Part shown: positions 4,243-37,246 of the stretch, piece by piece
How the letters are laid out: each line of letters opens with the position of its first letter
How positions within the stretch are numbered: the first letter of the stretch is position 1
Notes under the pieces: model-generated
Told to the model about the DNA's origin: nothing
What the model saw: the letters and a program-made list of their open reading frames with translations, nothing else
Databases searched by the model: none
NCBI RefSeq assembly: GCF_006345805.1
Contig: NC_043001.1
Coordinates: 29,202,001-29,266,000 of the forward strand
Direction of reading: 5' to 3'
Source of the DNA: Octopus sinensis
Lineage: Eukaryota
Length of the DNA stretch: 64,000 nucleotides
Position numbers and translations under genes: made by a program

Positions 4243-4404
4243 GTTGGCTGGAGACCATTTGCAGATGACAGATATTACAGATATTGGTGGGTAGAGTTTA
4301 TCAACCTGGTTTATCCCATATTAGTGCTGCTTTTGCTCCTATTCATCTATGCATGGCAAGTTGGAAACTGCTGGTGGAATTTAAATGCCCGAATTTACAT
4401 AAAG
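4243..4404 (+). CDS. GRL-like 7TM protein, first identified coding exon (TM1)
   Basis: ctttcag|GTT...AAG|gtaagt; VGWRPFADDRYYRYWWVEFINLVYPILVLLLLLFIYAWQVGNCWWNLNARIYIK; 162 nt, phase 0-0. Confidence 0.88.
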
Positions 4405-5359
4405 GTAAGTTCAGCACTGCTACTGCTGCTACTACTGCTGCTACTACTGCTGCTTTCAGGGTTGATAATATAAGTACCACTTGAGCTTTAGGGTCGATGT
4501 AATTGACTTACTCCTTCCCTGGACTTGCTGGCCTTGTGCCAAAATTTGAAACCAATATAATAATTGAAGCCATTTATGTACATACTTAATGTATGAGCAA
4601 TGCCTTGTATTTTCATCAAATCTACCTTTTCCTGAAGAGAATAGACTCATCTGTTTCATTTGTTAGGATCAGGCACCTTTTATTTTTGTTTCCTTTCACT
4701 GATCCCGTATTGATGGATACAAGTACATAGATCCGTATTAAAAAATATGAAGCTTCACAATACAGTCATGTAAGCACAAGTGATAGTCAGTACATTCTGG
4801 GTAGTTGCTGGGTCATTCTTTTGCAGACCAAGCAGAATGTTTGGCTGATAGTTGCCCTGTGTTATCACAGACCAATCAGTGATAAGCATATCATGGTTCA
4901 ACTGAGCATACCATGTTATTCCAGATCAGTGATGAATGAATCAGTGATAAATGAAGCTACATGTAATATATCAATGTCGTCATGCCTCTATTAGATGAGC
5001 AGAATAAGCAATGGAGATGCATGGTTTTAAACTCCTGTTATACAGGAGAATTGCTTTTTAAGCTTCTTTGTGATGCATCATTAAAGATATGCCTGTTAGA
5101 TGCTTCATTAGTCTGAGAGAAGTTTGTCAAGAGTTTGTTAATGTTACAATAACAGAATGTCTGTAAATTATGTTGTCAAATTAAAATTTTGACCTTTTGA
5201 CAATGACTCACACCATTTTCGTATTTTGGTTTAAGTAAATTACCCACAATACTACAATCATGATCCAAACTTTATGCACCTTTGGCCACATACTTCCATG
5301 AGTTCAGAATAAATGACTTACAAAAATCTTCCTCCAAATCCTCTAGAACTATATATATA

Positions 5360-5924
5360 TTGGGTTGTCTGGAAAGTTCGTGCCGATTTTTAAAGGAAAG
5401 AAAAAGGTCAATAAATACTTGCCATTGCATTTTTAATCAACCAAATATGAACCATTTTGTTGCACAATGCGTCTCCATCTTTCCTTTAACTTGAAAATAC
5501 CCTCTTCCCAGAATTGAGGTGGTTTCATGGCAAAGAATTCATCAAGGTATCTTTTTATGTCATCCAAGGAATTGAAATTTTTACCATTAAGACTATTCTG
5601 CAGAGACCTGAATAAGTGGAAATCCAAAGGAGCAATATCTGGTGAATATGGAGAGTGGGGTAACACATCCCAGCTGAGCTGCAGCAATTTTTACCTGTTC
5701 CCAAAGCATCAAGTGCCGAAAATGAACTTTCTTATCTTCCATTTTAAAGGGTTACAGAATTAATACAGGGTATAGGAATATAAATCTTCTTCCACGAAAA
5801 GATAGCTTAAACTGTGCTCTAAATGGAGATGTAGTCAAATCCTATTTTATGGACTCAACCATGTTCTAAAATAAGTTGAAAGGTAAGCTACTATAAATCG
5901 ACACAAAATTTCTGGACAACCCAT
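5360..5924 (-). mobile_element. Internally deleted mariner element
   Basis: TIRs ttgggttgtctggaaagttcgtgccgattt / aaatcgacacaaaatttctggacaacccat with TA flanks. ORF 5433-5687 contains HSPYSPDIAPLDFHLFRSLQN. Confidence 0.92.
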
Positions 5925-6030
5925 TATATCAGAATTCAAAATTTTATTGCATTTGTGTATTTATATTTTCATTATACTTGCTTATCTATCCAACCTGATT
6001 TTTTTTCTCTCTTCTTTTGTATTCCAACAG

Positions 6031-6255
6031 AGCCATGAACACAAACATATGCTTACAATTAGTAGCAATAAATCTGCCTTGAGAATATCTGAAGATACAA
6101 ATTTGACAGCCATCAATAAAAAGGGGAATGTTGAATGCCAGCAGAATATGCCCACTTATTTAATAACAGATATATTGCACTTGATTATGTTCTGTATGGG
6201 AATGGTCTTTTTCCGTTATCATGGTGATGAACAAGTATGTGGTCTCTTAGAGAAG
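6031..6255 (+). CDS. GRL-like 7TM protein exon (long loop and TM2)
   Basis: Polypyrimidine tract, caacag|AGC...AAG|gtatat; SHEHK...VECQQNMPTYLITDILHLIMFCMGMVFFRYHGDEQVCGLLEK; 225 nt, phase 0-0. Confidence 0.9.
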
Positions 6256-33460: not shown

Positions 33461-33540
33461 CACTTATACATGAATTAATTCTTGTTTTTGCTTTTCTTGT
33501 TCATTACCTGTTTCCTTTCTTGTTCTTTTTTTCTTTTTAG

Positions 33541-33672
33541 GCGGCCCGTGTAAACTCTGCATGCAAGCGTTTCCATAACGATGCTTTATCATTCGCAGCC
33601 AATGGATATAAAGCTCTACCTCAAGCTGAACTTGATTCCTATGTTTTATTCACAAGCAATGCAAAACTCAGG
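33541..33672 (+). CDS. GRL-like 7TM protein exon (loop after TM6)
   Basis: Long pyrimidine tract tttttag|GCG...AGG|gtaatg; AARVNSACKRFHNDALSFAANGYKALPQAELDSYVLFTSNAKLR; 132 nt, phase 0-0. Confidence 0.92.
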
Positions 33673-36600
33673 GTAATGTATTAACTATATACACTACATA
33701 CATATATATGAATACATACACTCACCTTCTCCTCATACTTACACACACTCACATACATATTTAGACTTATATTGGAAAAAAGTGACAATAGTTCGATAGT
33801 TTGTGACTGAAAATTGCAAAGATCAATGTCTACTTATTATTAGTGTGTTACTAAGTTGCTACTTGTTGCCACACTGCTGGTAAAAATATTTGTTGATCAT
33901 GCGCATACCTTCATAAATTATTCAAAGTGAAAATCTTATTTTAAAGACTGTGTTGTGTTGTTTATATGTTGAAAGACATATAGAAACACACACACACACA
34001 CACACACACACACACACACTCACTCACATACTCAACACATACACACACACTCACATACATGTACACACACATACACGAACAACCCCTCCACCCAAAATAA
34101 CTGAATGCATTATATATATAAATATATATCTGTTTCTTTATTGCCCACAAGGGGCTAAACATAGAGGGGACAAACAAGGACAGACAAACGGATTAAGTCG
34201 ATTACATCGACCCCAGTGTGTATCTGGTACTTAATTTATCAACCCCGAAAGGATGAAAGGCAAAGTCGACCTCGGCGGAATTTGAACTCAGAACGCAACG
34301 ACAGACGCAATACCGCTAAGCATTTCGCCTGGTGTGCTAAATATATATCAACATCGCCATTACTGGCACCTATGCTGGTGGCATGTGTAAAAGATTTGAG
34401 TGAGGTTGTTGCAAGTACCACCTGACTGACCCCCGTGTGGTTGGTGTTTGGAAGGGCATCCAGCTGTTGAAACTCCACCAGATCAAGATTGAAGCCTGGT
34501 GCAGCCATCTGGTTCGCCAGCCCTCAGTCGTTTGTCTGACCCATGCTAGCATGGAAAGCGGACGTTAAACAATAATGATGATGTATATATAGTCTTTTTG
34601 ATGTCTGCATTGTGTTGACAGACTTGCACGTAAAATTCCTGCATTTTTAATCAAAACTTGTTAATTACTAAAGTGACAACACTACCTATTTATCTATCTT
34701 TCACACATACACACACACTCTATCTCTCTCTCTCTCTCTCGCACTCTCTCTCTCTCTCTCTCACTGTATTTCTCTCTCAACAACTTTTTCTCCTCTTCTC
34801 CCCTCTCTCTACACAAATACTGTTATAGACAGATGCACAGACAGACAGAGACCAACTGTTTTATAATAAAAGATTATGCTTTTAAAGAAAAGACATTATC
34901 CAACTTTATTTAACTTTAATTTGTATTTGTTACTTGTAAATATAATTTTGGAGGAGGTCAATCCAGCCTTTATTTGTAAGGAAAGATCTGTATAAAAACA
35001 TTAAGTAGCATAGCTGTAGTCAATGATCTAATTTCATATGCATTATTTATGGGTGAAATAAATTTCAAAGATACATCGTCCCATACAAAAACTTCTGGAG
35101 TTAGTTATAAATATATTGCAATGTTCAAAACCCTTCTCTATTATCAGGTATCTCAGGGCTGCAAGTTTTTCACCCCTTAACCTGTATGCTTTGCTTGAAT
35201 AGGTATGGAATTAGTTTTTTCCTATGGACAGATTTCACCTATGTTCAGATGAAAACAACTCAAGATGCTGTAATAATTTGTTACACATGGCTAGTATTAA
35301 TGACAAACAACAAACATTTTCAGTTTTGAAAGGCTCACAACCGGCTAAATAAATAGAAATCATAAGTGTACACATATGGCTTTGCACTCACTTAAGCACC
35401 AACAATTGTCTTTGGTTAACCCAAGGCTACAAAAGAAGGCACTTGTGTATGGTCTCGGTAGTCCTGAGTTTTCTCATTAATTTAGTCTTTCTTCCCATTG
35501 GAGTAAAGATAGGTGAAACCACAGGTAAAATGGCCACTAAATACTGGCTGTAATAGCAAATTGGTTATGCCTGTGATATAGTTTTTGCTATATAGCTGCA
35601 GGCCAGCCTTCATTAAATAGACCTATTTTCAAAGACTCTTAAACTGTGACTATACCATCTTTTCATATATCTGGAACTAAAACAGTATAGTTTCCTTGTA
35701 ATTAAACAGTAGAGTATGATTTGAGGAAAAATTTGGCTGCTATTTCTAATGAACCAAATTACTATATAAAGTTATTATTATTTTTTGCTGTGTTAGAGTT
35801 GATTCATACTCCTGAGGTGCTTTACAATTAAGCAGGAAACTTTCTAATGAATCTTATGTGTGTGTATGTGTGTATATGTGTATATGGATGTGTGTATCAG
35901 AATTGTACATACACATCCTCTGGGGCCACATCTATTGTTACTCATCACCTGCCTTTACCTTTGTCCACCTCTGTTATTGCCAATCACTCTGCTCTTAACT
36001 CCACCCAATTTTCAAATATCCTTGCTTGGTGGGGTGTGGGTGAGATTTGAGTGAGACTTAATTGTCATTTCAAGTAGGTTGAGCAACAATGTAAAGTCTC
36101 CTTTGCTTTTTTTAGTTTGTTGGCACTGATGTAATCAGTATTTGACTTTCACTTGTTCAAATCAATGTCCATAGAGAAAATATAGATAGATGGAATTTTG
36201 AAGGACTATAGTTCCATAGAAGAATGTTTTGAAAAAAATGTATGGCAAGGATTGCTCACTCGTCATGTGGCTGACCAGTTTTATAAGTGCTGGTGATCAT
36301 GGACCTTCAGGCCAAAGTTTGAAGATTTATACAGAAGTGATTTCCCATTGCCTTCTGTTTATTTACAGTTTATTCCACTACCTTCATGCTTTCCTGAGCT
36401 TAATCTCAAAGCATGAGGCCTATTTAACTCTTAGGTGGAAGGACCGATTCACATGATATCAAGTATATATCCAGATGAGGTGGTGAAGTATGATCTTCAA
36501 ATGTGTCTCATGAAGGCAATGACAAGTGATTGAGACCTTTGGTGATTTGCTGTACTTGAGAAGATACATCAAGCTAAGTGAAATTGTAGTCATGGCCAGT

Positions 36601-37111
36601 GACGTATAAATGGCACCCAGTACACTCTGTAGAGTGGTTTGTGTTAGGAAGGGTATTCAGACTTAGAAACCAAGCTGAAACAGACTAGAGAACTCCAGCT
36701 TACCAACTCCTAGTCAAACCATCATACCCGTTCTAGCATGGAAAACAGATGCTAAATGATGATGATGATGATGATGATGGTGATGGTGATGATGATGATG
36801 ATGATGTGATGATGATGATGATGATGATGATGATGATGCATAGTGACTATGTTTCAATATGGTTGACTAAGTTCAGATTGTTGTATCTTCTTGAAGGATG
36901 ATACTAAGATTTCCTTCACAGGAATAGCATATTTTTTTTTTATTGCAGTTAGGTATTTCTGCTATATTTTGATAATGGCTCGCTTTAACAGCATACAGAG
37001 TTGCTTGTGGGTGAGTGGGGATGAAAAAAATACCATGTTTATATTTTGCAATAATTTTTCTCTATCATGGTTCTCACCAAATAATCTTTCAATTCTTCTT
37101 TATACTTTCAG

Positions 37112-37246
37112 GCCAAACTGTTCCAGATTCCAATAATGGCTCATTACTTAGTAGGAGTTTTGGTTTTCGCTTGTTTCCTCTTCCCAATCCTTTTCCAGAC
37201 AGGTGTCTTGAAAATTAAACCTGCAAAGAAATCATGGTATTCTTGA
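37112..37246 (+). CDS. GRL-like 7TM protein terminal coding exon (TM7)
   Basis: ctttcag|GCC...TCT TGA; AKLFQIPIMAHYLVGVLVFACFLFPILFQTGVLKIKPAKKSWYS*. Confidence 0.9.
   Translation, partial: AKLFQIPIMAHYLVGVLVFACFLFPILFQTGVLKIKPAKKSWYS

What the first reader, a model, noticed from the sequence alone, without database searches (positions are those of the whole stretch)
4243..37246. Intact gustatory-receptor-like 7TM ion channel gene in a probable octopus genome
Seen: nine exons splice in frame to 404 aa with seven hydrophobic segments. Motifs GWRP before TM1, YL..ILH in TM2, EQ...L.EKVFL, NY..QC, APLIQAAR...AC, ELD...L.TS...LRAKLF..P and a Q at the end of TM7 match, from memory, the GrlHz-type family related to insect GR/OR channels and plant DUF3537 proteins. 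The TM1-TM2 loop has two N-glycosylation sequons (NKS, NLT) and flanking cysteines (GNCW, ECQ), consistent with an extracellular loop and therefore the cytoplasmic-N-terminus topology of this superfamily rather than a GPCR. Established: insect GRs/ORs are tetrameric ligand-gated cation channels, whereas described cephalopod chemotactile receptors are Cys-loop proteins. Inference: a candidate additional, uncharacterised chemosensory or ligand-gated channel; its ligand and function are unknown.
Basis: partly seen in the sequence, partly recalled or inferred. Interest (0 to 1): 0.85.

Follow-up and report, generated by a model that had tools for sequence, protein, structure and literature searches.

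The report
Octopus GrlHz taste-receptor-fold gene, already catalogued
This is a real, spliced octopus gene whose protein is predicted to fold like insect taste and smell receptor channels; it is already listed in a 2023 catalogue of the ancient GrlHz family and more likely serves a general cellular sensing role than taste in the suckers.

Summary
Nine AG/GT exons at 4243-37246 splice to 404 residues. These are identical to the C-terminal 404 residues of RefSeq XP_029637129.1 (Octopus sinensis LOC115212387, 519 aa); three more coding exons lie upstream of the window. Spliced contigs from two samples support the first four junctions. An AlphaFold2 model (pLDDT 80) matches only insect GR/OR structures (Z 18.8-26.3; next best 8.4) and shows the split TM7. 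The family call is right but not new: this accession is already in the GrlHz sequence files of Benton & Himmel 2023. Its function is untested. It is likely a tetrameric ligand-gated cation channel. A general rather than taste role is favoured because it appears single-copy, the family reaches back to sponges and unicellular holozoans, and the fly GrlHz is expressed outside taste neurons. Added here: trees split the family into two ancient lineages, with octopus apart from the one named insect; the octopus protein sits on a long branch, has lost an anchor-region motif, and has Thr at the outer-gate position.

The parts
4243..4404 (+). Coding exon 4 of 12 (first in window): GWRP motif, TM1, first conserved Cys; residues 116-169 of the 519-aa protein
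   Evidence: AG/GT ends; on spliced contigs of runs X1 and X4, joined directly to the next exon
6031..6255 (+). Coding exon 5: TM1-TM2 loop with sequons NKS and NLT, second conserved Cys, TM2, EQ...LLEK
   Evidence: both Cys in 80 of 95 and a sequon in this loop in 71 of 95 family members
10058..10125 (+). Coding exon 6 (68 nt): loop between TM2 and TM3
   Evidence: with the next exon it fills exactly the 176 nt that the contigs carry between exons 5 and 8
14233..14340 (+). Coding exon 7 (108 nt): TM3
   Evidence: 176-nt gap
19622..19799 (+). Coding exon 8: TM4 and its long cytoplasmic extension (NY..QC)
23319..23418 (+). Coding exon 9: cytoplasmic part and most of TM5, near-invariant Asn375
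   Evidence: Asn in 92 of 94 relatives; junctions not seen in the displayed read rows
23655..23761 (+). Coding exon 10: end of TM5, short loop, TM6
   Evidence: junctions not seen in the displayed read rows
33541..33672 (+). Coding exon 11 (132 nt, phase 0/0): cytoplasmic end of TM6 and TM7a (predicted anchor domain); absent from RefSeq isoform X2
   Evidence: outside the stretch laid with reads
37112..37246 (+). Coding exon 12: beta-hairpin, TM7b (predicted pore helix, Ile501, Gln504, Thr505), stop codon
   Evidence: outside the stretch laid with reads

Best explanation
The window holds the last nine of twelve coding exons of the octopus GrlHz gene (RefSeq LOC115212387), whose protein is predicted to have the insect GR/OR fold and likely works as a four-subunit, ligand-gated cation channel in a general, non-taste role. 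Shown: exon structure, identity to the RefSeq protein, spliced transcripts for the first four junctions, GrlHz membership. Predicted: cytoplasmic N-terminus, long TM4-TM6 plus TM7a as anchor, beta-hairpin, TM7b as pore helix, a Cys-clamped glycosylated TM1-TM2 loop outside. Inferred from insect GR/OR structures: four subunits join at the anchor; a small ligand binds an outward-facing pocket; TM7b rotates so that Gln504 replaces the hydrophobic gate (likely Ile501, since the outer-gate position is Thr505) and cations pass. Inferred from copy number, age and fly expression: the ligand is a conserved endogenous or ubiquitous molecule sensed in many tissues. My odds: membership 0.97, ion channel 0.7, general rather than peripheral-taste role 0.65.
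For: Identity: 0 of 404 mismatches to P0010. Transcript: contigs of 2021 and 2066 nt join exon 4 to 5 directly and carry exactly 176 nt (68+108) before exon 8, 0 other letters. Fold: model on 109 sequences, pLDDT 80.1, pTM 0.79, helices 459-471 and 485-504 split by a hairpin; the top 8 of 48,161 chains are all GR/OR, Z 18.8-26.3, rmsd 3.6-4.8 A over 305-363 residues, next 8.4; all Foldseek rows listed down to rank 24 are GR/OR/Orco, next E 0.26. Topology: K+R denser on the N-terminal side in 86 of 95 relatives, octopus 18/105 against 9/72. Gate register: alignment ends 506-469 (MhOR5), 505-444 (BmGr9), 509-426 (Gr43a) put Thr505 on MhOR5 Val468, named as closed-state gate in PMC12635824, and Ile501 on Gr43a Ile418, if the last helix is ungapped (gate role of Ile418 recalled). 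Membership. One copy: 12 matches at E up to 0.15 of 34 candidates, all this gene; one GrlHz locus per Octopus species in the paper's file. Relatives in sponges and Syssomonas. [quoted passage not shown] 83 of 85 modelled 7TMIC tetramers were Or-like (10.1101/2023.08.30.555482).
Against: No GrlHz protein was shown to conduct ions in the papers found; the authors say a wholly different activity cannot be excluded. The GR signature TYhhhhhQF is not met. The octopus protein falls in a different lineage from the one named insect, so fly expression transfers weakly. It sits on a long branch (end branch 1.56 against 0.23 for chiton) and replaces the family R-x-F before G-Y (R 66 of 94, F 69 of 94) by A-x-N, which could mean a changed role. 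The short C-terminal tail, predicted outside, has four Lys. The tissue of the transcripts is unknown. The last four junctions were not seen in reads.
Confidence: 0.55

Rival explanations
1. It is a peripheral chemoreceptor channel of sucker, skin or olfactory-organ neurons, a second ionotropic system beside the Cys-loop chemotactile receptors.
For: GR/OR fold. Long octopus branch and changed anchor and pore-helix residues, fixed between Octopus species: 17 of 519 differences to O. bimaculoides, none after residue 358. Large, variable outer loop. Belongs to a lineage apart from the insect gene.
Against: No expansion found, unlike octopus chemotactile receptors (up to 26 in O. bimaculoides; PMC11526382). 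Fly GrlHz is not in taste neurons. Octopus has other, more divergent GRL genes that fit this role better. No expression data for this gene were found.
Confidence: 0.2
2. It keeps the 7TMIC fold but is not a ligand-gated plasma-membrane channel: an organellar or leak channel, a scaffold or an accessory subunit for other GRLs, as Orco is for ORs.
For: No function shown for any GrlHz in the papers found, and the authors leave this open. Outer-gate position is Thr, Leu, Cys or Val rather than Phe across the family. Some GrlHz carry WD40 domains. Conserved, low-copy genes in this superfamily include Orco (established knowledge).
Against: Gln at the GR gate position is the commonest residue (53 of 94) and the anchor helices are conserved. 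Conserved sequons in one loop fit passage through the secretory path but do not fix the final location.
Confidence: 0.22
3. The model is a mis-joined or decaying gene, or a GPCR-like protein with the opposite topology.
For: No Pfam family matches. Other Octopus annotations join the exons differently (P0002, P0003, P0042).
Against: Open frame, canonical splice sites, spliced contigs, near-identity between two species, collinear alignment with relatives, and a fold match to GR/OR only.
Confidence: 0.03

Closest known systems
GrlHz (GrlHolozoa; Drosophila CG3831 family), Class-A eukaryotic 7TMICs (PMC9998090; 10.1101/2023.08.30.555482)
   Same: This very protein (XP_029637129.1), its isoform X2 and the O. 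bimaculoides orthologue are in the paper's GrlHz sequence files.
   Different: No WD40 domain; the first 90 residues are predicted disordered. It falls in the lineage of chiton, gastropods, Owenia, rotifers, Saccoglossus, Acanthaster and a spider, apart from the lineage of Diabrotica, Oppia, Lingula and two sponges, so it is likely a paralogue rather than a one-to-one orthologue of the fly gene. Long branch, A-A-N-G-Y for R-V-F-G-Y, Pro500 in TM7b.
Insect gustatory and odorant receptors (BmGr9 8vc1, Gr43a 8jm9, Gr64a 8jme, MhOR5 7lic, Orco 6c70)
   Same: Seven-helix packing, long TM4-TM6, split TM7 with hairpin, Gln at the gate position, phase-0 introns at the 3' end (two here; homology of position not tested).
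   Different: 7-10% identity in the structural alignments; no 7tm_7 match; no TY...QF motif; a long Cys-flanked, glycosylated first outer loop; not expanded.
Plant DUF3537 proteins (PF12056)
   Same: Same predicted fold: Atlas TM 0.58/0.68 and feature score 0.94.
   Different: No profile match (0 of 26 family members); the paper finds GrlHz linked to Or/Gr/Grl clusters, not to DUF3537.
Cephalopod chemotactile receptors (CRs)
   Same: Only the organism and a possible sensory role.
   Different: CRs are pentameric nAChR-derived channels, expanded in octopus (PMC11526382); unrelated fold.

Membership tests
GrlHz | Recovered by PSI-BLAST from Drosophila CG3831 (E 1e-10) and kept in the authors' GrlHz set | tested here: met
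   Accession found in source data 4 at part 335, within the file GrlHz-Dmel-CG3831.fasta (parts 312-340), and in Figure 3-figure supplement 1 source data 1 beside CG3831. I did not rerun the PSI-BLAST.
GrlHz | One-to-one orthology with Drosophila CG3831 | tested here: inconclusive
   The fly protein was not among my sequences. With Diabrotica as the only named insect, octopus falls in the other lineage; single-copy trees rejected.
7TMIC superfamily | Seven TM helices with the GR/OR packing | tested here: met
   (predicted model)
7TMIC superfamily | Intracellular N-terminus, extracellular C-terminus | tested here: met
   Positive-inside count 86 of 95; sequons in the TM1-TM2 loop 71 of 95 against 13, 26 and 27 of 95 in the three loops of the other side; no dedicated topology predictor was available
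7TMIC superfamily | Long TM4-TM6 forming an anchor domain | tested here: met
   Helices 304-353, 357-401, 408-452
7TMIC superfamily | TM7 split into TM7a and TM7b by a hairpin | tested here: met
   H459-471, strands at 477-478 and 481-482, H485-504
7TMIC superfamily | N-terminal re-entrant helix (TM0) | tested here: inconclusive
   A confident helix 93-116 precedes TM1 and lies inside the ranges aligned to GR/OR chains; membrane re-entry not assessed
7TMIC superfamily | Extracellular loops shorter than intracellular loops | tested here: inconclusive
   Outer loops 2 and 3 are short, but the first outer loop is about 50 residues, as long as the inner loops
7TMIC superfamily | Tetramer with a central pore and ligand-gated cation current | not testable with these tools
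Insect Gr family / Pfam 7tm_7 | TM7 motif TYhhhhhQF | tested here: not met
   Only the Gln is kept; no Thr-Tyr, Thr in place of Phe
Insect Gr family / Pfam 7tm_7 | Match to PF08395 | tested here: not met
   0 of 26 proteins, this one included, at E up to 0.1
DUF3537 | Match to PF12056 | tested here: not met
   0 of 26 proteins at E up to 0.1; fold similarity only

The most novel reading that the evidence does not exclude
The octopus kept only one of two ancient GrlHz paralogues, the one absent from the insects sampled, and remodelled it (long branch, altered anchor motif, proline in the pore helix) into a cephalopod sensory channel of arm, sucker or olfactory organ: the first GR-fold chemoreceptor working in a mollusc, with an anchor-less splice form as a built-in regulator.
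Probability: 0.12. Interest if true: 0.75.

Novelty: already known. Interest (0 to 1): 0.3.

Why it matters
As a discovery it is modest: the gene is annotated in RefSeq and classed as GrlHz in print. It still matters as a test case. Whether GR-fold proteins outside insects and nematodes are ligand-gated channels is open, and the papers found report no function for any GrlHz. This gene is intact, transcribed, apparently single-copy and models well, in an animal where receptor assays are established. The tree result adds support to the paper's undecided two-paralogue hypothesis and warns against reading the octopus gene's role from the fly gene.

Tried and rejected
Pfam on 7 single exons, on 2 full Octopus proteins and on 26 family members: no 7tm_7 or DUF3537 match; the few weak hits were under cut-off and unrelated. 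Profile search of PDB sequences: 0 matches at E up to 10. Tetramer modelling: tool not available. Second-lineage paralogue in the own genome, sought with the Lingula protein: 2 matches of 11 candidates at E 0.6-0.75, one of them this gene, so the search is too weak to show absence. PF08395 in the own genome: 1 match of 111 scored, a low-complexity repeat; it also missed the GRL genes listed in the paper, so it shows nothing about copy number. Squid or cuttlefish orthologues: none identified, so it is unknown whether the octopus changes are shared by other cephalopods. No listed run is on record as RNA and no tissue is given. The published GrlHz tree files were cut in the library, so the paper's own placement of the octopus sequence was not seen. 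Earlier scan findings: none by place or sequence; 8 shown by words concern other genomes and other 7TMIC branches. GPCR and pseudogene readings rejected for the reasons given under rivals.
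Full report
Observation. Six-frame motif searches located the named motifs on the + strand, and splice-site scans found the three remaining exons. The nine exons have AG acceptors and GT donors throughout, total 1215 nt and give 404 residues and a stop, with seven hydrophobic peaks.

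Identity. A search with one exon returned two O. bimaculoides proteins at 93% identity. The cluster of the first holds RefSeq XP_029637129.1 (O. sinensis LOC115212387 isoform X1, 519 aa) and isoform X2 (475 aa). The spliced window protein equals the last 404 residues of X1 with 0 mismatches; X2 lacks exon 33541-33672. Searching the own genome with X1 gave 15 matches among 34 candidates: 12 at E up to 0.15 are exons of this gene and 3 at E 3.8-6.3 are noise. Three upstream exons supply residues 1-115 with 0 mismatches. No tandem paralogue was found; the search scores only its best candidates.

Transcripts. Of 21 runs listed, none is on record as RNA. I laid 4 of them on 4100-24000. In X1 and X4 (two samples, one study) a single contig joins 4242-4402 directly to 6029-6253 and resumes at 19620-19797 after 176 nt, the sum of the 68- and 108-nt exons, with no other letters; the 1-2 base shifts from my boundaries are junction ambiguity. 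X5 and X6 showed single-exon pieces only. So one junction is seen directly and three by length; the last four were not seen, because the table was cut or they lay outside the stretch. They rest on the RefSeq model and on collinear alignment with relatives.

Fold and topology. A model on 109 sequences reached pLDDT 80.1 and pTM 0.79; residues 1-88 and 183-193 are low-confidence. It shows a helix before TM1, long TM4-TM6, and TM7 split by a hairpin. Against 48,161 representative chains the top eight are all insect GR/OR structures (Z 18.8-26.3) and the ninth scores 8.4. Foldseek agrees, as does the ESM Atlas. Lys+Arg are denser on the N-terminal side in 86 of 95 aligned relatives; the TM1-TM2 loop has both Cys in 80 of 95 and a sequon in 71 of 95 (14 of 109 rows under 75% coverage were left out).

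What is in print. A search for GrlHz found 3 records, 2 listed. For Benton & Himmel 2023 (PMC9998090) I saw passages, the supplement list and searches in supplement files; the first search covered 12 of 53 files, file 4 was cut when stored, and two tree files were cut. XP_029637129.1, XP_036359178.1 and XP_014777607.1 are in the GrlHz PSI-BLAST file and in the source data of the GrlHz figure. The word octopus does not occur in the main text, and a main-text search of the library for the four identifiers found 0 papers. So the gene is classified but, in the library searched, not discussed. Searches for octopus or cephalopod with gustatory-receptor terms (listings only) showed no study of it. 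Most subscription papers are outside the library. From the preprint of the same paper I saw the figure legend that sets a single-copy against a two-paralogue hypothesis for GrlHz (10.1101/2022.12.13.519744, passages). From Himmel et al. (10.1101/2023.08.30.555482), PMC12635824 and PMC11526382 I saw passages only.

Family tree. A profile search found 904 cluster representatives at E up to 0.001, of which 150 were listed. I treed 87 near-full-length ones, a subset of 38 and the 18 for which I had species names (names). The careful tree gives one lineage at 100/98 (octopus, chiton, two gastropods, Owenia, Rotaria, Seison, Saccoglossus, Acanthaster, Nephila) and another at 97/93 (Lingula, Oppia, Diabrotica, Sycon, Oscarella lobularis); two sponge proteins are unplaced. 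Forcing the three arthropods or the eleven protostomes together is rejected (p-AU 2e-88 and 2e-07). Caveats: the groups were named after the trees were seen, five rows including octopus are long branches, and the fly protein is not in the set. The result favours the two-paralogue hypothesis and places octopus apart from the sampled insect.

Octopus peculiarities. Root-to-tip length 1.26 against 0.47-0.93 for six molluscan, annelid and unnamed neighbours. Within its lineage the motif before G-Y in the anchor region is R (24 of 28), V (23), F (22); octopus has A-A-N. Pro500 in TM7b is not among the five commonest residues at that column. These changes are shared by the three Octopus proteins seen, and the last 161 residues are identical between two species, so the gene is constrained now.

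Mechanism. By analogy with GR structures (PMC12635824), four subunits would meet at TM7a and the inner ends of TM4-TM6, with TM7b lining the pore. The ends of three structural alignments place Gln504 at the GR gate Gln, Thr505 at the outer hydrophobic gate and Ile501 one turn below, assuming no gap in the last helix. I therefore expect Ile501 to close the pore and Gln504 to wet it on ligand binding. Assembly, conduction and ligand are all inferred. For the biological role, a single conserved copy, a family as old as sponges and Syssomonas, and broad non-neuronal expression of the fly member fit an internal sensor better than a taste receptor, whose families expand; the paralogy and the long branch keep the sensory reading open.

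Verdict. Real gene, correct family and fold, already catalogued; function untested. Interest 0.3.

Noticed in passing
window 33541-33672 (+): RefSeq isoform X2 skips this exon in frame (44 residues), removing the inner end of TM6 and all of TM7a, the predicted assembly surface. If real it could be non-assembling or dominant-negative. Not tested with reads.
   Followed up: partly
PMC9998090 source data 4, file AnimalGrls: 13 Octopus entries for other, conventional GRL genes: LOC118764548, LOC118764605-608 (consecutive numbers suggest a cluster) and O. bimaculoides LOC106874590, several with multiple isoforms. These look like better chemoreceptor candidates than the gene studied here.
   Followed up: no
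window 47942-48741 (+): Broken transposase remnant in two frames, DDE_Tnp_1_7 match E 1.8e-14 (piggyBac-type by recall). An O. vulgaris gene model (P0003) splices it onto this gene in place of the last exon, probably a prediction error.
   Followed up: partly
window 21231-21749 (-) and 22517-22948 (-): Reverse-transcriptase remnant inside an intron (RVT_1 E 1.4e-6, under cut-off) with a neighbouring frame that looks like the same non-LTR element.
   Followed up: partly
window 28355-28900 (-), 38239-38727 (-), 54817-55167 (-): Frames that resemble non-LTR retroelement C-terminal or GIY-YIG pieces by recall; no Pfam match at E up to 0.01.
   Followed up: partly
window 33265-33458 (+): A GAT microsatellite just before exon 11; a similar repeat is read as a long acidic exon in the 755-aa O. 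bimaculoides model P0002, an annotation artefact.
   Followed up: no
window 38094 (+): First AATAAA after the stop codon, about 850 bases downstream; possible poly(A) signal.
   Followed up: no
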